From a phage: DNA of 64,000 bases. The notes below the pieces were generated by a model. The model saw only the letters and a list, made by a program, of their open reading frames with translations, ran no database searches and was not told the DNA's origin. A program made the translations under genes and the position numbers. Below are positions 31,601 through 50,035 of this stretch, one piece after another (positions within the stretch are counted from its first letter, which is position 1; each line of letters starts with the position of its first letter). Location of the stretch: the sequence record PX667085.1. One strand, given 5' to 3'.

Positions 31601-32302
31601 TTAACCTCCGTTGTTTGTTGGGGTATTAGTAGCTTCAGCAGTTCTTACTGTAATATCTGACTTAGGACCATTCGAAGCAACTTGACCTTTCACATCACCA
31701 CCAGTCGATTTATTTGGTGCTGTTTTTACAGCAATAGCATTAGTAGTGGCCTTAGAAACGAGACGGATTTGTTCAAACTCTAAATCAAATTGCATAGCAA
31801 ATTCAGATTTATAATCATAAGAGTAGCCTTTGAGAATAACATTTTCAAAAGTCCTGTGTTCTGTCAAAAGAACTATTGGTTGTCTTGACTCAAATATTTG
31901 ATCTAGATATTCTATTGCTTGAGAAATCCTTGCCCCATTTACACCTGCACTGTATAATTGATCTCGCATAAGCCGAATTGGTGTTTCGGTAATTATACCT
32001 GAAAGTTTAAATCTGTTGTTTTTTATTTGAACGTGGTCACTTACATCCGATCCTGATTCTACTGGAAAACTTGTAACATCTGCCTCACGAGTTACACCTA
32101 CTTCAGGGACCGAATCGAAAGTAATTGCTTTAAAGTTTTGAATGTATTGATCACTTGAACTATTATAAACACTTGCTAAAATGCAGAAACCATTATCACC
32201 CTTTACAGTAGATGCCGAGGTATTTTTATTCTCGGTAGAGTTGATTTCCTGTTCTGCCTTATAGACGGCTCTCACCGACTGTTGTGGAGTCATTGCTGCC
32301 AT
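31601..32302 (-). CDS. tail structural protein
   Basis: 233 aa ORF directly downstream of tape measure gene. Confidence 0.3.
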   Translation of the reverse strand: MAAMTPQQSVRAVYKAEQEINSTENKNTSASTVKGDNGFCILASVYNSSSDQYIQNFKAITFDSVPEVGVTREADVTSFPVESGSDVSDHVQIKNNRFKLSGIITETPIRLMRDQLYSAGVNGARISQAIEYLDQIFESRQPIVLLTEHRTFENVILKGYSYDYKSEFAMQFDLEFEQIRLVSKATTNAIAVKTAPNKSTGGDVKGQVASNGPKSDITVRTAEATNTPTNNGG

Positions 32303-32395
32303 GATAACCTCGTAGTAATGATAATGCCAAAAGGAAGATGCAAGATCTTCCCATATTGATTATTGTAACACATATAGAAACTTCGTGTCAAGGGA

Positions 32396-32421
32396 AACGA
32401 AAAAACCCCGCCGAAGCGAGG
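32396..32421 (-). terminator. rho-independent terminator after tape measure gene
   Basis: minus-strand CCTCGC-TTCG-GCGGGG hairpin followed by TTTTTTCG. Confidence 0.55.
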
Positions 32422-32428
32422 TATTTTA

Positions 32429-34417
32429 TTAACCACCAGTGTTAGATTGTCCACTTAGAGTTGAAAGAGATAAACGTTGGAAAATGCTATTTCCGCTATT
32501 TTGAATTCTTGCATCAAGAATATTTCCAAACTCGGAAGAAGGACTGATCGTAACTTTGATAAGATCACTTGGTATTGCTACCGTATTCTCAACAACAGGT
32601 TGATTACGAGCCAAACTTACGTTAGGTGTATAGGCTGATTCACGTAAATCTTCAAGAGGATTACCAAATCCAAAAGCACGTGTCCTTGTTTGTTCTCCTC
32701 TCCACATACGACCAATATCTTGTGTATCAATACCTGTTAAATTGTACAACCAATCTGCTACAGGATTGCTGTCTCCACTTTGCGTTGCCTCGTATGCTTT
32801 TTGTGCCATAGATTTATTAGGATCTGTGTTGTCTCCGAATGTATCTGGGAATGTTTCTTTAAGCCAATTGGTAAAAGATCCGAAACCATCTCCCAATTCT
32901 TTAGCAAAACCTCCTAATTGAACTGTTGTCTTACCGAGTTCTTCACCTAAATCTTTGGCAAACTGATCTAGCACTTTAACGTTATCCAACCAAGAATCAT
33001 CTTTAGGTAACGCTTTCACAAAACCCTCTAAGAAGTGGTTCTGCATACCTTGACCTACAAGCTGAACTGTTGCAGCAAAACGAGTAAACTCCTTAGAAGC
33101 ATCTATTTGTTCTTGAGTTAATGTTGCACCTGTTCTTTGAAGCATTTTCAATACTTCATTGTATCCTTCGCCGTTTTTACTAAACATTCGTTGGTAGTGC
33201 ATAAGGTCGTCACCAAGGTTTTCAAGAAGTCGCCCGATTTGAGCAGAGTTCATACCTCGACGTTCACCTTCATTAACAGTAGCCTGAATAAAAGCTAAAG
33301 GATCGTTCTGTAAAGGTTTAAGCTGTTCTGGATTCCATCCAAACAAGTTCATAATGTCATTTATGCCATTATCACCGCCTTTCCACTTCCCTTCTTTCTC
33401 ATTCCATTTTGAGGCTAAAACTGTATTACCAAGACGTTCACGAACGTCTTTAATATTATCTATTGACTTAATAATATTTGCAGAGTCTACACCGTTCTGT
33501 TCACCCCAAGCTGTCATTGCCAAAATAGCGTTGGCGTTTGTCTGAACGTTTTCAGCACCACGACTTACAAGTTTAATTCTTTCGTTAGTATTCATCAACG
33601 TGTTACCAACTACAGAACCACCTGCAAACAGCCCAGCACCTATTAAAGAGGATGCAATCATGCGTGGATTAAGACCTGCTGCACCTTCTTTTAATTGTCC
33701 ATATCGACGATCACGATCACGTTTTTGTTGAGCTAATTCACGCTTACGGTTGCGTTCTATATCTCTAAGTTCACGATTTCGCATACGTATACGCATTTTA
33801 GCTTCTGCTTCTAGCTCTCTACGAATACGGCGACGACCGCGAACCTCGTCTTCTATTTCAGCATTCTTTTCACGATGAGATCTGCGTAAGGCATCTAACT
33901 GGTGAGCAAGAGCTTGGTTCATACGTTGAAGAGTTATTTCACCCTTTTTGTATTGCTCTACAGCTTTACCCATAACGTCTCTAGCTTCTTGCATAGCGCC
34001 AGGACTAGCTTTACTAAATGCTCTTGCTCGATAGTTAAAGTTCTGCAAACGAAGATTACCTAAATCTTCCCTACGTGCTGCTGCTTTAGCTTCGCGTTCA
34101 GCAGCTTTACGAGCTTTTTCTTCTTCTCTTCCTTGCGGGGTTTTAGGAGTTCTAGGTCTACCAGATCCGCCTACAGGAGCACCCGCTCCAGCGGGAGTAG
34201 GTGCTCGCATAGGTTTTTGACTTTGAGTTTGAGCTTTCTTAAGTTCACGCTCAATCTCTTTCATTTGTTGTCTAAACTTGGTCATGTTCATAGTGGGTTG
34301 CATTTTATTTGCAAACTTCTGAACACTCAACACGGCATCTTTTGCTTCCTTGAGACTGTTCTTGTCCACCTTAAACGTAACCACGTTACTAATTTTGGAG
34401 GCGTTAATTTCTAACAA
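32429..34417 (-). CDS. tail tape measure protein
   Basis: 662 aa; long charged coiled-coil (REEEKARKAAEREAKAAARRE...) and Gly-rich segments; follows chaperone pair with frameshift site. Confidence 0.6.
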   Translation of the reverse strand: MLEINASKISNVVTFKVDKNSLKEAKDAVLSVQKFANKMQPTMNMTKFRQQMKEIERELKKAQTQSQKPMRAPTPAGAGAPVGGSGRPRTPKTPQGREEEKARKAAEREAKAAARREDLGNLRLQNFNYRARAFSKASPGAMQEARDVMGKAVEQYKKGEITLQRMNQALAHQLDALRRSHREKNAEIEDEVRGRRRIRRELEAEAKMRIRMRNRELRDIERNRKRELAQQKRDRDRRYGQLKEGAAGLNPRMIASSLIGAGLFAGGSVVGNTLMNTNERIKLVSRGAENVQTNANAILAMTAWGEQNGVDSANIIKSIDNIKDVRERLGNTVLASKWNEKEGKWKGGDNGINDIMNLFGWNPEQLKPLQNDPLAFIQATVNEGERRGMNSAQIGRLLENLGDDLMHYQRMFSKNGEGYNEVLKMLQRTGATLTQEQIDASKEFTRFAATVQLVGQGMQNHFLEGFVKALPKDDSWLDNVKVLDQFAKDLGEELGKTTVQLGGFAKELGDGFGSFTNWLKETFPDTFGDNTDPNKSMAQKAYEATQSGDSNPVADWLYNLTGIDTQDIGRMWRGEQTRTRAFGFGNPLEDLRESAYTPNVSLARNQPVVENTVAIPSDLIKVTISPSSEFGNILDARIQNSGNSIFQRLSLSTLSGQSNTGG

Positions 34418-34437
34418 AGTATGTTCCTCGTGTTGGA

Positions 34438-35186
34438 TTAAACAAGTTTCTTAAACAAATCTGACATTTTATTTGTCTGGTTTTGATGTTTTCTCTTTAT
34501 TGAAGTGTCTTTAACATACATGGCTTCAACATACTCTTCGTATGTTAAATACTCATATAGTTTTAAAAGATAATCTACACCGTAGTTATCCAATGTTTTC
34601 AGTGTTTCCGAGGTATCTTTAACGACTTTGCAAAGAATAACCTCATACCACTTCAAAGTAAGGGTTTTCGTTGCTATGTCGATAGCATGTTCAATCGCAG
34701 GTGTTAATTTGCTGCTAAACTCGTCATCGCCTGAAGCTGTGTGAACAGTTTTCCGAAACCTCGTTTGAAAAAAGGGCCGTAGTTTACCTCCAGAACTTTA
34801 GCAGTAAGATCTAACACTAGTTCTGGGTGAGCCATAAATAATTCATCAAAATTTTCTGCAACGTTATAACCGTCTTGAGTATAAACCTCATCTAAAATTT
34901 TACGCAAAAAGACAGTTAAATTCTTTTCTTCCAAACCTGCAAAAAGTTGGATCAATGCCATAGCAATACGTGACTCAAGGTCTTCGTCTGCGGACATTGT
35001 TGCTGTGCTATACATAGTCATAGGAACAACCAGAACACTACCTAATTCTGGAATCCTGTCAAACACTTTAGATGGACTCCACTTCATAATACGGAAAGTA
35101 ACAGATCTGTTTCCATCTAACGGAATCTCAACTACTTCTTCTGGTCGAGCATATTTTTGAATTGTGTTATCTTGTTCTTGTGACAT
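34438..35186 (-). CDS. tail assembly chaperone G-T fusion by programmed -1 frameshift
   Basis: minus-strand C-CCT-TTT-TTC (plus 34767-34776); the -1 frame is open from the slip site to the stop at 34438 and matches the track ORF 34438..34656. Confidence 0.55.
34704..35186 (-). CDS. tail assembly chaperone (G-like, zero-frame product)
   Basis: 160 aa ORF between tube and tape measure genes; strong SD GAGAGGAAAAT; contains slippery site near its 3' end. Confidence 0.5.
   Translation of the reverse strand: MSQEQDNTIQKYARPEEVVEIPLDGNRSVTFRIMKWSPSKVFDRIPELGSVLVVPMTMYSTATMSADEDLESRIAMALIQLFAGLEEKNLTVFLRKILDEVYTQDGYNVAENFDELFMAHPELVLDLTAKVLEVNYGPFFKRGFGKLFTQLQAMTSLAAN
34767..34773 (-). other. slippery heptamer T_TTT_TTC for -1 ribosomal frameshift
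   Basis: zero-frame codons CCT TTT TTC read as G-P-F-F; heptamer X_XXY_YYZ. Confidence 0.5.
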
Positions 35187-35199
35187 ATTTTCCTCTCTA

Positions 35200-35225
35200 A
35201 TGATAAAAAGGGCATTTCTGCCCTT
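35200..35225 (-). terminator. terminator after tail tube gene
   Basis: AAGGGCA-TTTC-TGCCCTT hairpin with T tracts on both strands. Confidence 0.5.
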
Positions 35226-35231
35226 TATTTA

Positions 35232-35711
35232 TTATTGAATTGTCAGAGCAGAGATTGAGTTAAGGGTGCTCAAACCTACACCAACTTCATTACGCAGAAG
35301 GCTTGCATCTTTAAGACCAATAACCCATTGGTTCTCTGTAATCATTTCGCCAATAGTATCTTCAGGCTGACTTTGAATCCATCCAATCGTGCTAATGTAA
35401 TAGCCACGTGGGTCTTCTAAATAAACACTGAACGCTACTTGACGAGTAGAATACATTGTTTGTGCATATGTTGCAAGTACTTCGTTAGCTGGAGATGTGC
35501 GTTGCAAAGACATTGTGAGTGTTCCCAAACGGTTACGACTCAAAGCTAGTGAAACGTCGCCATCAGTCCCTGCATAAGGGTTGATAATATCGTTAGATTT
35601 AGCAATAACGATTTTAGTATCAGCCGCAAAACCCCACGGTTCCCAACCACCTAATGAAAGGATAACTTGAGATGGGTCGTAGGCCATTACGCCAGTAAGC
35701 ATTTTATCCAT
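35232..35711 (-). CDS. tail tube protein
   Basis: 159 aa ORF immediately downstream of sheath gene. Confidence 0.45.
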   Translation of the reverse strand: MDKMLTGVMAYDPSQVILSLGGWEPWGFAADTKIVIAKSNDIINPYAGTDGDVSLALSRNRLGTLTMSLQRTSPANEVLATYAQTMYSTRQVAFSVYLEDPRGYYISTIGWIQSQPEDTIGEMITENQWVIGLKDASLLRNEVGVGLSTLNSISALTIQ

Positions 35712-35757: not shown

Positions 35758-37131
35758 TTAGTTTGCAGTACGGTTAGTCAGGACGTTGACCTGAACTTTA
35801 ACGTAATGGAAGAAGCCAGCGTAAACATATTCAATCTTCATCCCATCGACCAGACGAGCATTGATTTGCGCATCAGTCATATCGGCACGAGAAGGAATAT
35901 AAACAATAGGTTTCAGATCGACACGCAAACCAGTCTCTTCAGAAGTAACAACTTCATTAGCGATGGAACCGTTGAGGATACCTACTTGGATCGGGTTAGC
36001 CAGAACAGCTTGTCGAATCAAAGCCAGACCGTTTGAAGTAGCACGAACACCACCACCCAGCATAGACTGTTGTTTAAACAGTGTAAACAGTGATTCTTCT
36101 GTGCGAGCTTTAAACCACAAAGCATGAACAACATAGTCAACAAAGAAACCGCTAACCATCAATCCATCACGATAGAACAGAGTTCCATGCTCTTTACGAT
36201 AGATGTTACCGTTCTGTTGAACAATATTGTTTTCCGAAGTCTGATCCAGTTTCTCGATCTCTACACCTACCAGTGTTTTACCGTGAAGAGTAGTTAAACC
36301 AGGTTGACGAGAACAGATTGCACCAACAACTGCCGCTTCTGGGAATACAGAATCTGCATCGGTCATCCACAAAGCAAAGCAAGTGTTATTATAACCGAGG
36401 TCATTCAGTCGTTCCAGAACGTTATCTTCTGCTTTCGTTTTAATTCCAGGTTCAGAGCTAGAGAAGAAGTAAACTTTATCATTCTCTTCTACCCATGCAG
36501 CCAAAGCTAGAACATCTTCTGTTTCATGGGAATCTGAAAGGGTCCAGAACCAGCTACTATCGATATCATGCAGAGCAGCAATATCTTCCGTAATAGCATT
36601 AGCATAGACAGTTTCTTGAGTGAAACCTGTGCTGTCAATAGAACCAAACTTACCTTCTACTGGAGTGAAAGTCATTGCAGCGCCGTTGTTAGCTACTGTA
36701 AACAGTGGGCCATAAACAAGATCTGCATTGATCATTTCAGTCAGACCAACTACAATCTCTTGTGCAGTTGCAGTGTCATCAGCAATGAATTTAAATTCTT
36801 TTTTCTTGGTACCATTTTTGATGGTAATTGTGTAAGTTGCACTATCTTCTACGATTGGAGTTAGAGTAAAGTTTGTAACTTCACGCTTACCAACCATGAC
36901 TTGATCTGGTGGGAACAAACCGTTAAACAGTTTGACTGCCATAATATACGCTGGATCATTTAATCCATAACCTGCTTCCAAAAGTGCATCGGAAGAAGAG
37001 TAATATTGAATCGCTTCGCCAGTTACGTTCTGACCTGTAAGGATCAGGGGAATATCGAACTGGGTTTCACGAATTGATGTAGCACCATACAGTAAAGTTA
37101 CGGTTGCTACCTTTTCACGAAAAGTTGCCAT
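35758..37131 (-). CDS. tail sheath protein
   Basis: 457 aa ORF upstream of tube and chaperones, sheath-typical size and position. Confidence 0.5.
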   Translation of the reverse strand: MATFREKVATVTLLYGATSIRETQFDIPLILTGQNVTGEAIQYYSSSDALLEAGYGLNDPAYIMAVKLFNGLFPPDQVMVGKREVTNFTLTPIVEDSATYTITIKNGTKKKEFKFIADDTATAQEIVVGLTEMINADLVYGPLFTVANNGAAMTFTPVEGKFGSIDSTGFTQETVYANAITEDIAALHDIDSSWFWTLSDSHETEDVLALAAWVEENDKVYFFSSSEPGIKTKAEDNVLERLNDLGYNNTCFALWMTDADSVFPEAAVVGAICSRQPGLTTLHGKTLVGVEIEKLDQTSENNIVQQNGNIYRKEHGTLFYRDGLMVSGFFVDYVVHALWFKARTEESLFTLFKQQSMLGGGVRATSNGLALIRQAVLANPIQVGILNGSIANEVVTSEETGLRVDLKPIVYIPSRADMTDAQINARLVDGMKIEYVYAGFFHYVKVQVNVLTNRTAN

Positions 37132-48110: not shown

Positions 48111-48189
48111 TGGAGGCGGGAATTGGATTTGAACCAATGATCTCCAGCATATGAAACTGGCGAGGACGACCAGACTCCTCTATCCCGCT
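48111..48189 (-). tRNA. tRNA-Met (anticodon CAT)
   Basis: CCA encoded; T-arm ATTGG-ATTTGAA-CCAAT; anticodon loop TTCATAT; 11-nt D-loop; A1-C72 mismatch. Confidence 0.55.
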
Positions 48190-48195
48190 ATTAGG

Positions 48196-48265
48196 TATCC
48201 CGTGCTGGATTCGAACCAGCATCACAATAAGTTGTGGAACTCTTATCCTGTAAGTCTAACGGGAA
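48196..48265 (-). tRNA. tRNA-like element, possibly degenerate
   Basis: clean T-arm GCTGG-ATTCGAA-CCAGC and 6-bp acceptor, but only 70 nt, no CCA, anticodon arm would need a 10-nt loop. Confidence 0.3.
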
Positions 48266-48267
48266 AT

Positions 48268-48341
48268 TGGTTGTTTCGACAAGAATCGAACTTGTGTCTC
48301 ACGATTATCAGTCGTGGGTTCTACCATTGAACTACGAAACA
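48268..48341 (-). tRNA. tRNA-Ile (anticodon GAT)
   Basis: CCA encoded; 7-bp acceptor; T-arm; anticodon stem CACGA/TCGTG with loop CTGATAA. Confidence 0.7.
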
Positions 48342-48347
48342 TTAAAT

Positions 48348-48424
48348 TGGTCGGAATTGCAGGATTCGAACCTGCGACCCTACGCTCCCAAAGCGTATGC
48401 TCTACCAAACTGAGCTAAATTCCG
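48348..48424 (-). tRNA. tRNA-Pro (anticodon TGG)
   Basis: CCA encoded; 7-bp acceptor; T-arm GCAGG-ATTCGAA-CCTGC; anticodon loop TTTGGGA. Confidence 0.7.
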
Positions 48425-48429
48425 TTATA

Positions 48430-48505
48430 TGGCTGGTCTGTCTGGATTTGAACCAAACCTACGACAGTCAAAGTGTCGTGTGCTACCTGACTACACTACA
48501 AACCA
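48430..48505 (-). tRNA. tRNA-Gln (anticodon TTG)
   Basis: CCA encoded; acceptor with one G-U pair; anticodon stem CGACA/TGTCG with loop CTTTGAC. Confidence 0.6.
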
Positions 48506-48603
48506 ATAAATCATTTAATGAAGGGCAACCAGAAGAGGTGTGAGAGAAGGAGAAAACCATGAGTAAAAGAGAAAGTTTTCTGGCAACCCTTTATTAAATA
48601 ATT

Positions 48604-48677
48604 TGGAGCGTTCTACGAGGATCGAACTCGTGCCGCCGACTTGGAAGGACGGAATGCTACCGCTACACCAAGAACGC
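48604..48677 (-). tRNA. tRNA-Gly (anticodon TCC)
   Basis: CCA encoded; perfect acceptor and T-arm ACGAG-GATCGAA-CTCGT; anticodon loop CTTCCAA; one U-U mismatch in anticodon stem. Confidence 0.55.
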
Positions 48678-48688
48678 CCTACCTCTTT

Positions 48689-48718
48689 ACTATACTACAT
48701 TTTACTATTGGTTGTCAA
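48689..48718 (-). promoter_or_regulatory. tRNA-unit promoter 1 (AACTATTGACAA motif, -10 TATAGT)
   Basis: minus-strand TTGACA at plus 48713-48718, TATAGT 18 nt downstream; directly precedes tRNA-Gly. Confidence 0.45.
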
Positions 48719-48993
48719 TAGTTTTATTGAGTGGGACAGTGACGAGTATCCCATTGGGTGACTAGCCCTACGTTCGGTAAGCTAACTTAAAATAATACAA
48801 AACCAAAGTCAAATATTATTCTTCGTTGCTGTCGATGGGAGAGCCGCTTCTTCTTTTGCCCCATCCAACCCTACTCCGGTCAAGTTTCAGGTAACTCTTT
48901 TTGTGTGATCAACACAATACTAAGAACACTGTCTTTCGAACAGACCTTGTGCACAGGATACGACGATCAATCACAGTGCTCTTAATGTTGTGT

Positions 48994-49068
48994 TGGTGCT
49001 CCCACTCTGAATCGAACAGAGATCCACGGATTACAAAACCGTTGTAATAGCCATTATACTATAGGAGC
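48994..49068 (-). tRNA. tRNA-Thr (anticodon TGT)
   Basis: CCA encoded; T-arm CTCTG-AATCGAA-CAGAG; anticodon loop TTTGTAA. Confidence 0.6.
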
Positions 49069-49074
49069 AAAGCT

Positions 49075-49151
49075 GGGACTCGGCAGGATTCGATACCTGC
49101 AATTCCAGAAGCCTCTTGGCGACTGGGGGTTTACCTTAACTCTACAAGTCC
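49075..49151 (-). tRNA. tRNA-like element with atypical 8-nt T-loop, anticodon unresolved
   Basis: acceptor pairs (6 bp plus one G-U) and T-stem GCAGG/CCTGC present, but T-loop is TATCGAAT and no 5-7-5 anticodon arm found; no CCA. Confidence 0.3.
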
Positions 49152-49158
49152 ATAATTC

Positions 49159-49244
49159 TGGCGATGAGTATAGGATTTGAACCTATATCGTTCTTTCGAA
49201 CACGGATTAACAGTCCGCCGCTTAAACCATTCAGCCAACTCATC
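49159..49244 (-). tRNA. tRNA-Asn (anticodon GTT) with extended 15-nt variable arm
   Basis: CCA and G73; perfect acceptor; anticodon arm GCGGA-CTGTTAA-TCCGT; extra hairpin GTTC-GAAA-GAAC before T-arm; 86 nt. Confidence 0.5.
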
Positions 49245-49250
49245 TTAATT

Positions 49251-49338
49251 TGGTGGTGAGTGATGGAGTCGAACCACCCGAATCGCAATGATAACAGATT
49301 TACAGTCTGCCCCGCTACCCCTACGGAATTAACTCACC
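49251..49338 (-). tRNA. tRNA-Tyr (anticodon GTA), class II
   Basis: CCA, A73, perfect acceptor; anticodon arm CAGACTGTAAATCTG; long variable arm; 88 nt. Confidence 0.7.
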
Positions 49339-49468
49339 TAAATACTAATATTTAAATTCTTTTTAAAATAGCCAGTGTTCACACCACTAACTATGAGTTA
49401 TCGGTAAGATGGTGGAGGCCATCTGCCGAAAGTTTACTCTATTAAAGTAAGCTATATTAAAAAGAACT

Positions 49469-49554
49469 TGGCGGTAGATGTAGGACTCGAACCTACACGC
49501 CGTTTCCGACTACAGTTTAGCAAACTGTCGTGGCTACCATTTCACCAATCTACC
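49469..49554 (-). tRNA. tRNA-Ser (anticodon GCT), class II
   Basis: CCA, G73, perfect acceptor; anticodon stem ACAGT/ACTGT with loop TTGCTAA; long variable arm. Confidence 0.7.
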
Positions 49555-49558
49555 AATC

Positions 49559-49649
49559 TGGCGGAAGGAGGGAGAGTCGAACTCCCAAGGCTCTTTCAAG
49601 CTCGGCGGTTTTCAAGACCGTTTTCGTCGCCACGTCGATTTGCCCTTCC
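49559..49649 (-). tRNA. tRNA-Ser (anticodon TGA), class II
   Basis: CCA, G73; anticodon region CGGTCTTGAAAACCG; long variable arm; exact 5' boundary uncertain. Confidence 0.55.
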
Positions 49650-49657
49650 ATACTTAT

Positions 49658-49687
49658 AATCTAACATAAAATAATGTTAGTTGTCAA
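49658..49687 (-). promoter_or_regulatory. tRNA-unit promoter 2 (AACTATTGACAA motif)
   Basis: minus-strand TTGACA at plus 49682-49687, -10 candidate TAGATT; directly precedes tRNA-Ser(TGA). Confidence 0.4.
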
Positions 49688-49883
49688 TAGTTTTTTAAAA
49701 CATTTTACCATGAATGGTGACTCCACCAACCCCCGTTCTCAACGAACGGTGCTCTTCGAGCATTTATGTCTTCTAATATAACCGTGGCCTTTGTTTATAA
49801 TGTCTGACATACTTGCCTCATTCTCTGCCACCATGATCAGTAGTGGGTTCAAATCACTTGAGCTAATTCATGTTAAAATGTTC

Positions 49884-49958
49884 TGGTGTCTTTACAAGGA
49901 ATCGAACCTTGACTAAGAGTTTAGAAGACTCCTGTGCTATCCATTACACCATAAAGAC
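49884..49958 (-). tRNA. tRNA-Arg (anticodon TCT)
   Basis: CCA, perfect acceptor, T-arm CAAGG-AATCGAA-CCTTG; anticodon loop CTTCTAA. Confidence 0.7.
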
Positions 49959-49960
49959 GT

Positions 49961-50035
49961 TGGTGGCCCTGGCTGGTTTCGATCCAGCTACCTATCGGTT
50001 ATGAGCCGACAGCTCTCCCATTGAGCTACAGGGCC
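49961..50035 (-). tRNA. tRNA with anticodon CAT (Met or lysidine-type Ile)
   Basis: CCA, perfect acceptor; anticodon loop CTCATAA; T-loop reads ATCGAAA (A at position 54). Confidence 0.6.

What the first reader, a model, noticed from the sequence alone, without database searches (positions are those of the whole stretch)
34438..35186. Programmed -1 frameshift joining the two tail chaperone ORFs upstream of the tape measure gene
Near the 3' end of the 34704-35186 ORF the minus strand reads GGC CCT TTT TTC AAA, giving the slippery heptamer T_TTT_TTC in the zero frame. The -1 frame is open from that point through the 34438-34656 ORF, so a slip would append about 110 residues and end at 34438. 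This is the conserved G/GT arrangement that sits directly upstream of tape measure genes in lambda and many other tailed phages.
Basis: partly seen in the sequence, partly recalled or inferred. Interest (0 to 1): 0.55.

Follow-up and report, generated by a model that had tools for sequence, protein, structure and literature searches.

The report
Tail chaperone frameshift site, phAPEC8-like phage
This is a genuine but ordinary example of the ribosome-slipping signal that most long-tailed phages use to make a short and a long version of their tail assembly chaperone; here it sits in a phAPEC8-like E. coli phage, and the public genome records I viewed do not annotate it.

Summary
On the minus strand the tail assembly chaperone gene (34704-35186) reads GGC CCT TTT TTC AAA in its own frame. 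The -1 frame is open from 34797 to the stop at 34440-34438, just before the tape measure gene. A slip yields a 249-aa fusion: 140 chaperone residues plus 109 new ones.

The window is a Phapecoctavirus, a phAPEC8-like E. coli myovirus. In-frame T_TTT_TTC is invariant in every relative examined, about 40 distinct sequences down to about 24-31% protein identity. It is conserved at the nucleotide level, beyond what the protein requires. The codon before it changes amino acid (Pro, Cys, Ser) but always ends in T.

The -1 extension is a conserved protein with coding-type substitution periodicity and no conserved start codon. I found no downstream RNA structure. An SD-like GGAGG lies 13 nt upstream but is only partly conserved.

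This is the classical lambda G/GT (P2 E/E+E') arrangement. None of the GenBank and RefSeq records viewed annotates it, and I found no fused protein in two very large protein libraries. A 2025 paper describes the same device in sister families.

Verdict: real, a new member of a known kind, low interest. Product and efficiency remain untested, and RNA polymerase slippage on the T6 run cannot be excluded.

The parts
34704..35186 (-). Tail assembly chaperone gene, short product 'G' (160 aa, 18.2 kDa), stop TAA at 34706-34704
   Evidence: Pfam PF21822 Phage_TAC_15 E = 1.3e-23 (84 bits against a cut-off of 22). phrog_3840 'tail assembly chaperone' E = 2.8e-55.
34767..34776 (-). Slippery run CCCTTTTTTC. 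It holds the universally conserved heptamer T_TTT_TTC (34773-34767) and the overlapping C_CCT_TTT (34776-34770), which is found only in Stephanstirmvirinae-like relatives.
   Evidence: for the sequence. In register in 17 + 31 distinct relatives. Codons TTT and TTC are invariant, while the two other invariant Phe columns use both codons.
34438..34767 (-). The -1 frame extension 'T': 109 codons starting with CAA at 34767-34765, then stop TAA at 34440-34438. It includes the 'intergenic' stretch 34657-34703 and the 72-aa ORF that gene finders call at 34438-34656.
   Evidence: Open frame. Protein conserved across relatives. Substitutions per codon position 0.37/0.26/0.63. phrog_16039 E = 1.3e-44. 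No conserved start codon.
34438..35186 (-). Predicted GT fusion CDS, complement(join(34767..35186, 34438..34767)): 249 aa, 28.8 kDa, junction ...VLEVNYGPFF|QTRFRK...
   Evidence: tblastn of the fusion gives two-piece, two-frame matches in relatives.
34787..34791 (-). Shine-Dalgarno-like GGAGG inside the chaperone gene, 13 nt 5' of T_TTT_TTC and 10 nt 5' of C_CCT_TTT. A possible stimulator, only partly conserved.
   Evidence: Sequence. GAGG is present at this place in 11 of 17 distinct relatives. Its role is inferred by analogy with dnaX.
32429..34417 (-). Tape measure protein gene (662 aa, TTG start, GAGGAA 7 nt upstream), immediately 3' of the T stop
   Evidence: phrog_16051 'tail length tape measure protein', 1249 bits. 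for the start.
35232..35711 (-). Tail tube gene, immediately 5' of the chaperone gene
   Evidence: phrog_280 E = 4.1e-35. Pfam KPP10_Orf10 at its cut-off. Annotated as tail tube in related records.
35758..37131 (-). Tail sheath gene, which shows that this is a contractile tail
   Evidence: phrog_205 'tail sheath' E = 2.9e-100. Pfam DUF3383.

Best explanation
This is a programmed -1 ribosomal frameshift in the tail assembly chaperone gene of a phAPEC8-like myovirus.

Most ribosomes translate 35186->34707 and stop at TAA, giving the 160-aa chaperone G. A minority slip back one base, with tRNA-Phe in both the P and A sites on U_UUU_UUC. In this lineage the slip could instead occur with tRNA-Pro and tRNA-Phe on C_CCU_UUU. 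The slipped ribosomes continue in the -1 frame to 34441 and make a 249-aa GT protein. GT carries the G domain, a short linker, and a conserved C-terminal domain of about 85 residues predicted, at low confidence, to be helical.

By analogy with lambda gpG/gpGT, many G copies and a few GT copies coat the tape measure protein. The T domain recruits the tube subunit to start polymerisation, and both chaperones are left out of the virion.

Shown here: the signal, the frame architecture, their conservation, and the coding nature of the T frame. Inferred: that the fusion is made, its ratio to G, the ribosomal mechanism, and the binding partners.
For: - Anatomy: exact.
- Gene context: sheath, tube, TAC, then TMP.
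- Conservation of the heptamer: in-frame T_TTT_TTC is present in all 17 distinct relatives from GenBank and IMG/VR, and in all 31 distinct loci of a second IMG/VR scan. That scan was seeded on a peptide that does not include the FF codons. Protein identity goes down to about 24-31%.
- Conservation of the frames: the -1 extension is 82-92 codons in every locus not cut by a contig end. The +1 frame runs 4-20 codons.
- Nucleotide-level selection: of 10 fully conserved degenerate amino-acid columns in G, only TTT and TTC at the site and GGT four codons downstream have an invariant codon. The two other invariant Phe columns use both TTT and TTC. The preceding codon is CCT, TGT, AGT or TCT, so the amino acid changes but the third-position T is kept.
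- The T frame is coding: a conserved domain, and substitution rates of 0.37/0.26/0.63 at codon positions 1/2/3.
- No independent initiation: 8 of 17 relatives have no ATG, GTG or TTG between the slip site and the conserved Trp. Where candidates exist they are at different positions. In the window the TTG is preceded by GCAACGAAAACCCTTACT, which has no SD. Gene callers start the ORF at six or more different places.
- Heptamer class: all-pyrimidine X_XXU_UUY heptamers are in the frameshift-prone class in E. coli (PMC4066793).
- General mechanism and role of G/GT: PMC5009743.
- Same device in sister myovirus families: PMC12846349.
Against: - There is no experimental evidence for the fusion protein in this lineage. 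The rV5 genomics and proteomics paper does not mention a frameshift, chaperone or tape measure.
- No stimulatory RNA structure was found. The 94 nt downstream fold no better than shuffles (z = -0.01), RNAalifold predicts 0 conserved pairs in 17 sequences, and there is no Rfam match. Lambda G/GT also needs none (from memory), so this is weak evidence against.
- The upstream SD-like GGAGG is not universally conserved.
- The FF dipeptide and the dual-coding zone after the site impose some sequence constraint of their own.
- A one-U insertion by RNA polymerase would give the identical protein, so sequence alone cannot separate the two mechanisms.
Confidence: 0.85

Rival explanations
1. Transcriptional slippage. 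RNA polymerase occasionally adds one extra U while copying the T6 run, and ordinary translation of that minority mRNA gives the same 249-aa GT protein.
For: A U insertion in CCCUUUUUUC gives exactly ...GPFFQTRF..., identical to the frameshift product. According to PMC12846349, which cites Vladimirov et al. 2022 (paper not held), a non-translational route has been suggested for the tail chaperones of T4-like phages. No RNA structure of the kind that often accompanies ribosomal frameshifting was found.
Against: Bacterial transcriptional slippage is described for runs of about 9 A or T (PMC5009743). Here the run is exactly 6 in all of about 40 distinct relatives and never lengthens, being always flanked by a non-T 5' base and a 3' C. 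The run is always in the X_XXY_YYZ codon register, although the conserved FF dipeptide would fix that register anyway.
Confidence: 0.07
2. Two separate genes. The downstream ORF (34438-34656, or a longer version) is translated from its own start as an independent small protein, as the database records annotate it, and the heptamer is incidental.
For: Gene finders call a 72-aa ORF from TTG 34656. Several GenBank and RefSeq records annotate such an ORF as a hypothetical protein. PHROGs holds it as its own family, phrog_16039. In the Hena1-like lineage an ATG in the -1 frame overlaps the heptamer.
Against: There is no conserved start. 8 of 17 relatives have no ATG, GTG or TTG before the conserved Trp, and the window's TTG has no SD. 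Conserved residues (L-[ST]-P..AI..AI..A) lie upstream of the called start and inside the 'intergenic' gap. Annotated starts differ from record to record, and some records call no ORF at all. This reading does not explain the invariant codons TTT and TTC or the retained third-position T.
Confidence: 0.04
3. A chance heptamer, and an untranslated or decaying downstream frame.
For: About 0.1 in-frame X_XXY_YYZ heptamers are expected by chance in a 30-codon overlap at this composition.
Against: The heptamer is invariant across two subfamilies. The -1 frame stays open for 82-92 codons everywhere, with coding periodicity. It is the only such site in the window.
Confidence: 0.01

Closest known systems
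Phage lambda gpG/gpGT tail assembly chaperones (Levin, Hendrix & Casjens 1993; Xu, Hendrix & Duda 2004, 2013, 2014; summarised in PMC5009743)
   Same: Two overlapping frames directly upstream of the tape measure gene. A -1 slip on a simple heptamer near the 3' end of G. A C-terminal extension of about 100 residues. No obligatory RNA structure (from memory for lambda; none found here).
   Different: The heptamer is T_TTT_TTC (tRNA-Phe) rather than G_GGA_AAG (tRNA-Lys). The tail is contractile, not siphovirus-type. I did no direct comparison with lambda gpG; here G belongs to Pfam Phage_TAC_15. Ratio and partners are untested here.
Phage P2 gpE/gpE+E' (Christie et al. 2002; mentioned in PMC5009743)
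   Same: [quoted passage not shown] The slip is a -1 shift on a T-rich heptamer (T_TTT_TTG, from memory).
   Different: The last base of the heptamer differs (C rather than G). There is no detectable homology. P2's efficiency is reported as 2- to 3-fold higher than lambda's. Efficiency here is unknown.
Conserved 'GTTTTT' -1 frameshift site in the tail chaperone genes of Vandenendeviridae (Pakpunavirus, phage Adele) and Andersonviridae (PMC12846349, 2025)
   Same: Related virion module: the sheath, tube and baseplate proteins here hit KPP10, E217 and DUF3383 families. A poly-T slippery motif lies near the 3' end of TAC-N. The downstream piece is routinely mis-annotated as a hypothetical gene. 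The argument there is also from an uninterrupted -1 frame across many genomes.
   Different: That paper analysed other families and only notes their relatedness to Vequintavirinae. The motif here is T_TTT_TTC preceded by C or G, with an additional C_CCT_TTT in Stephanstirmvirinae. tblastn with the fusion did not reach those families.
T7 gene 10A/10B -1 frameshift (Condron et al. 1991; cited)
   Same: An A-site UUC decoded by tRNA-Phe re-pairs to UUU (G_GUU_UUC, from memory), and the host is E. coli.
   Different: It concerns a capsid protein, not a tail chaperone, and has a different P-site codon and biological role.

Membership tests
Tail assembly chaperone G/GT programmed frameshift (Xu, Hendrix & Duda 2004) | The gene pair lies between the major tail (tube) gene and the tape measure gene, on the same strand | tested here: met
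   Sheath 35758-37131, tube 35232-35711, TAC 34704-35186, T 34438-34767, TMP 32429-34417, all on the minus strand.
Tail assembly chaperone G/GT programmed frameshift (Xu, Hendrix & Duda 2004) | The upstream ORF is a tail assembly chaperone | tested here: met
   Pfam PF21822 Phage_TAC_15, 84.3 bits against a cut-off of 22. phrog_3840 E = 2.8e-55.
Tail assembly chaperone G/GT programmed frameshift (Xu, Hendrix & Duda 2004) | A second frame overlaps the 3' end of G and stays open to just before the tape measure gene | tested here: met
   The -1 frame is open 34797-34441 and stops 20 nt before the TMP start. The overlap with G is 91 nt.
Tail assembly chaperone G/GT programmed frameshift (Xu, Hendrix & Duda 2004) | A slippery sequence in the correct register lies inside the overlap | tested here: met
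   T_TTT_TTC and C_CCT_TTT are both in the X_XXY_YYZ register. This is the only such productive site in the window.
Tail assembly chaperone G/GT programmed frameshift (Xu, Hendrix & Duda 2004) | The arrangement and the slip site are conserved among divergent relatives | tested here: met
   17 and 31 distinct sequences, 100% with in-frame T_TTT_TTC. Codon-level invariance.
Tail assembly chaperone G/GT programmed frameshift (Xu, Hendrix & Duda 2004) | The downstream frame has no translation start of its own | tested here: met
   There is no conserved ATG, GTG or TTG, none at all in 8 of 17 relatives, and no SD before the window's TTG.
Tail assembly chaperone G/GT programmed frameshift (Xu, Hendrix & Duda 2004) | A fusion protein is made at a low, fixed ratio to G, is needed for tail assembly, and is absent from virions | not testable with these tools
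   This needs proteomics or immunoblots of infected cells and heptamer mutants. No report was found for this lineage.
Transcriptional slippage recoding sites (bacterial RNA polymerase) | A homopolymeric A or T run of about 9 or more | tested here: not met
   The run is T6, invariant in length in all relatives. The threshold is from PMC5009743.
Transcriptional slippage recoding sites (bacterial RNA polymerase) | mRNA population heterogeneous in run length | not testable with these tools
   This needs RNA sequencing of infected cells.
Structure-stimulated -1 PRF (dnaX / IS3-type) | A downstream hairpin or pseudoknot 5-8 nt after the heptamer, conserved or covarying | tested here: not met
   MFE -15.9 kcal/mol against a shuffle mean of -15.86 (z = -0.01). 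RNAalifold predicts 0 pairs in 17 sequences. No Rfam hit.
Structure-stimulated -1 PRF (dnaX / IS3-type) | An upstream SD-like element 10-14 nt 5' of the heptamer | tested here: inconclusive
   GGAGG at 34791-34787 lies 13 nt upstream in the window. GAGG is present in 11 of 17 relatives and absent in Certrevirus-like and some other lineages. It coincides with conserved Leu-Glu-Val codons.

The most novel reading that the evidence does not exclude
The invariant T6 run may not be, or not only be, a ribosomal slip site. It could be a short transcriptional slippage site used by the host or a phage-modified RNA polymerase, of the kind suggested for T4-like tail chaperones. Alternatively, the tandem overlapping heptamers C_CCT_TTT and T_TTT_TTC, together with the upstream GGAGG in Stephanstirmvirinae, may form a structure-free compound signal that sets a different G:GT ratio from the single heptamer of Vequintavirinae.
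Probability: 0.08. Interest if true: 0.45.

Novelty: new member of a known kind. Interest (0 to 1): 0.22.

Why it matters
- Annotation: the downstream piece is recorded as a separate 'hypothetical protein', or not at all, in every record I viewed. That covers phAPEC8-, phi92-, rV5- and PVP-SE1-like phages, and tblastn found 359 records with matching sequence. Many of these phages are candidates for phage therapy and biocontrol.
- What the corrected annotation gives: a join at 34767 defines the true 249-aa product and removes a spurious gene family (phrog_16039 and relatives). It also extends the conserved poly-T chaperone frameshift, recently described for Pakpunavirus and Felix O1-like phages, to two more subfamilies. 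That supports an ancient origin of the signal in this group of myoviruses.
- Limit: it does not change what is understood about frameshifting or tail assembly.

Tried and rejected
- Downstream stimulatory RNA. A single-sequence fold, RNAalifold on 17 sequences and an Rfam E-value scan found nothing. The conserved GGTTTCGG after the site is better explained by dual coding (Gly-Phe-Gly in frame 0, Arg-Phe-Arg in frame -1).
- Structure of the T domain. AlphaFold2 on the single sequence gave pLDDT 46 (all-helical, unreliable), so I ran no fold search.
- Solved structures by sequence: no hit for the fusion at E <= 1.
- 'Rosetta stone' fusions or annotated frameshift products. The search for homologous proteins with the fusion returned only G-length proteins of 158-175 aa. 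The exhaustive search with the T part returned only small ORFs of 55-107 aa, plus one repetitive 3956-aa protein that is a low-complexity artefact.
- Literature on this lineage. Searches for phAPEC8, rV5, PVP-SE1, Vequintavirinae or Stephanstirmvirinae together with frameshift found no description. Vladimirov et al. 2022 is not held.
- Other recoding routes. A +1 frameshift and stop-codon readthrough are rejected, because those frames close after 4 and 9 codons.

Full report
**What is in the sequence**

On the minus strand, the ORF 35186->34704 encodes a 160-aa protein. Its zero-frame codons near the 3' end are GGC(34778) CCT(34775) TTT(34772) TTC(34769) AAA(34766).

- The heptamer T_TTT_TTC (34773-34767) is therefore in the X_XXY_YYZ register required for tandem -1 slippage.
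- The -1 frame has a stop at 34800-34798. It is then open through the 3' end of the gene, the 47-nt 'intergenic' gap and the 72-aa ORF, down to TAA at 34440-34438.
- A slip at either heptamer, or a one-U insertion in the mRNA, gives the same 249-aa protein: 140 residues of the chaperone frame plus 109 new residues, with junction ...VLEVNYGPFF|QTRFRK....
- The +1 frame closes after 4 codons, and readthrough of the TAA meets another stop after 9 codons.

**Is it more than chance?**

- ORFs of at least 100 aa in the window contain 68 in-frame X_XXY_YYZ heptamers in 19,500 codons. About 0.1 would therefore be expected in the 30-codon overlap.
- Only the two heptamers at this site lead into a -1 frame that runs at least 30 codons beyond the zero-frame stop.

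**Context**

- The stretch 34300-35300 is 100% identical to Escherichia phage Mt1B1_P17 and 99.6-99.7% identical to phAPEC8, ESCO5 and many others. These belong to the genus Phapecoctavirus, subfamily Stephanstirmvirinae.
- The minus-strand neighbours, in order of transcription:
  - tail sheath, 35758-37131 (phrog_205, E = 2.9e-100)
  - tail tube, 35232-35711 (phrog_280)
  - the chaperone gene (Pfam PF21822 Phage_TAC_15, 84 bits against a cut-off of 22; phrog_3840, E = 2.8e-55)
  - the -1 frame piece (phrog_16039, 'unknown function', E = 1.3e-44)
  - the tape measure gene, 32429-34417 (phrog_16051)
  - baseplate genes.
- This is the gene order of a contractile-tail module, with the chaperone pair in the canonical place.

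**Comparative test**

- I collected homologous loci from GenBank phages and from IMG/VR. They cover Phapecoctavirus and Justusliebigvirus, plus Klebsiella phage 05F01, all in Stephanstirmvirinae. They also cover Vequintavirus, Henunavirus, Mydovirus, Seunavirus, Certrevirus and Avunavirus, plus Serratia phage ChuuTotoro, all in Vequintavirinae.
- In all 17 distinct sequences, down to about 24-31% chaperone identity, T_TTT_TTC is present in the same register. The -1 frame extends 82-92 codons past the G stop, against 4-20 codons for the +1 frame.
- A second IMG/VR scan was seeded on the peptide [KE]V[LV][EK][VI]NY[GA], which lies upstream of the site and does not include the Phe codons. It returned 38 loci, 31 of them distinct, and all have in-frame T_TTT_TTC.
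- C_CCT_TTT is confined to the Stephanstirmvirinae-like sequences. The universal signal is therefore T_TTT_TTC.

**Nucleotide-level selection**

- In a codon alignment of the 17 chaperone genes, 10 columns have a fully conserved amino acid with degenerate codons. Seven of them show 2-5 synonymous codons, including the two other invariant Phe columns, which use both TTT and TTC.
- The only invariant codons are TTT and TTC at the site, and GGT four codons downstream, which lies in the dual-coding zone.
- The codon before the site changes amino acid (Pro CCT, Cys TGT, Ser AGT, and Ser TCT in the second set) yet always ends in T.
- Only 5 of 142 ungapped columns have an invariant third position, and three of those five form the heptamer.

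**The -1 frame encodes a protein made only as a fusion**

- The extension aligns across all relatives. After the slip comes [QH]-x-R-F-R, then a linker that is short here and long and Gly/Ser/Asp-rich in Vequintavirinae. A conserved domain follows (L-[ST]-P..AI..AI..A....L.W[YF][DE]..L.....K...SE....L....[VM].YL[LM]K..E[YF][LI]...[DE][YF]).
- Pairwise differences per codon position in the part beyond the G stop are 0.37/0.26/0.63, the pattern of a translated frame.
- Conserved residues lie inside the 'intergenic' gap, upstream of the TTG that ORF finders use as a start.
- In 8 of 17 relatives there is no ATG, GTG or TTG anywhere between the slip site and the conserved Trp. Elsewhere the candidates sit at different positions. 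The window's TTG is preceded by GCAACGAAAACCCTTACT, with no Shine-Dalgarno sequence.
- Accordingly, public records call this piece with different starts or not at all. The relatives in a library of 1.84 billion proteins are ORFs of 55-107 aa that begin at query positions 1, 16, 30, 32, 38, 45 or 46.

**Stimulators**

- The 94 nt from the heptamer onward fold no better than shuffled sequence (-15.9 against -15.86 kcal/mol, z = -0.01).
- RNAalifold finds no conserved pair in 17 sequences, and Rfam has nothing above chance.
- A Shine-Dalgarno-like GGAGG (34791-34787) lies 13 nt 5' of T_TTT_TTC. From memory, that spacing stimulates -1 frameshifting in dnaX.
- However, GAGG is present in only 11 of 17 relatives and coincides with conserved Leu-Glu-Val codons. 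Its role is open.
- All-pyrimidine X_XXU_UUY heptamers fall in the frameshift-prone classes measured in E. coli, even without stimulators (PMC4066793).

**Mechanism and rivals**

- The best explanation is lambda-type -1 programmed ribosomal frameshifting, producing a majority of G and a minority of GT. By analogy, G domains coat the tape measure protein and the T domain recruits the tube subunit (PMC5009743). The signal and its conservation are shown. The product, its ratio to G, and its partners are inferred.
- The main rival is insertion of one U by RNA polymerase on the T6 run, which would give the same protein. Against it, bacterial slippage is described for runs of about 9, and the run here is exactly 6 in every relative.
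- Independent translation of the downstream ORF, and chance, are both contradicted by the comparative data.

**What is known**

- The kind is textbook (lambda G/GT, P2 E/E+E'; Xu et al. 2004).
- A 2025 paper describes the same device, with an invariant GTTTTT, in Vandenendeviridae and Andersonviridae, and notes that those families are related to Vequintavirinae (PMC12846349).
- For the phAPEC8, phi92, rV5 and PVP-SE1 group I found no description in the searchable literature.
- None of the 14 GenBank and RefSeq records I viewed has a joined CDS.
- Neither of two very large protein libraries holds a protein spanning both parts.
- It is therefore a new, unannotated member of a well-known kind. 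It is useful for annotation and of low surprise.

Noticed in passing
window 35207-35226 (minus strand): An intrinsic-terminator-like hairpin, AAAGGGCAgaaaTGCCCTTT followed by a T-rich tail, lies in the 45-nt gap between the tube gene and the chaperone gene. The phAPEC8 record also annotates it as a putative terminator. It could lower transcription of the chaperone and tape measure genes relative to the sheath and tube genes.
   Followed up: partly
window 34415-34437 (minus strand): The tape measure gene appears to start with TTG (34417), 7 nt after GAGGAA. The close relatives L005, L006 and L009 also use TTG, while others (L018, L022) have ATG at the equivalent place.
   Followed up: partly
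window 48111-50035 (minus strand): A cluster of 10 tRNA genes: Met x2, Ile, Pro(UGG), Gln, Gly, Thr, Asn, Ser, Arg. It includes a tRNA-Pro that reads the CCU of C_CCU_UUU, but no tRNA-Phe. The A-site tRNA for the slip must therefore come from the host.
   Followed up: no
L024 1545-1560 (Erwinia phage Hena1) and protein P0046: In the Hena1-like lineage the sequence GGATGTTTTTTC places an ATG in the -1 frame directly on the heptamer. Gene callers then produce an ORF starting MFFQERFR.... This start is lineage-specific and is not conserved elsewhere.
   Followed up: partly
protein P0044 (library hit, related to L010): A public 107-aa protein begins MALFQTRFRK.... That requires ATGGCCCTTTTTCAAACG, a T5 run rather than T6, in its source contig. 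It is either a homopolymer sequencing error or a natural length variant at the slip site. I could not look up the contig.
   Followed up: no
GenBank records OP562383.1, MG065661.1, MG065652.1, MG065666.1, MG065677.1: Records named 'Acinetobacter phage vB_AbaM_ABPW7' (100% identical to E. coli Phapecoctavirus over the 1-kb query) and several 'Campylobacter phage' records that give the same tblastn match as the rV5-like (Vequintavirus) records. The host labels look doubtful.
   Followed up: no
protein P0043 (library hit): A 3956-aa highly repetitive Glu/Thr/Val-rich protein matched the T part in 18 stretches (E = 3.6e-16). By eye this is a compositional or repeat artefact, not a relative.
   Followed up: partly
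window 32290-32454 (minus strand): A 54-aa GTG-started ORF overlaps the 3' end of the tape measure gene and the start of the next gene. It has no family match and is probably not a gene.
   Followed up: no
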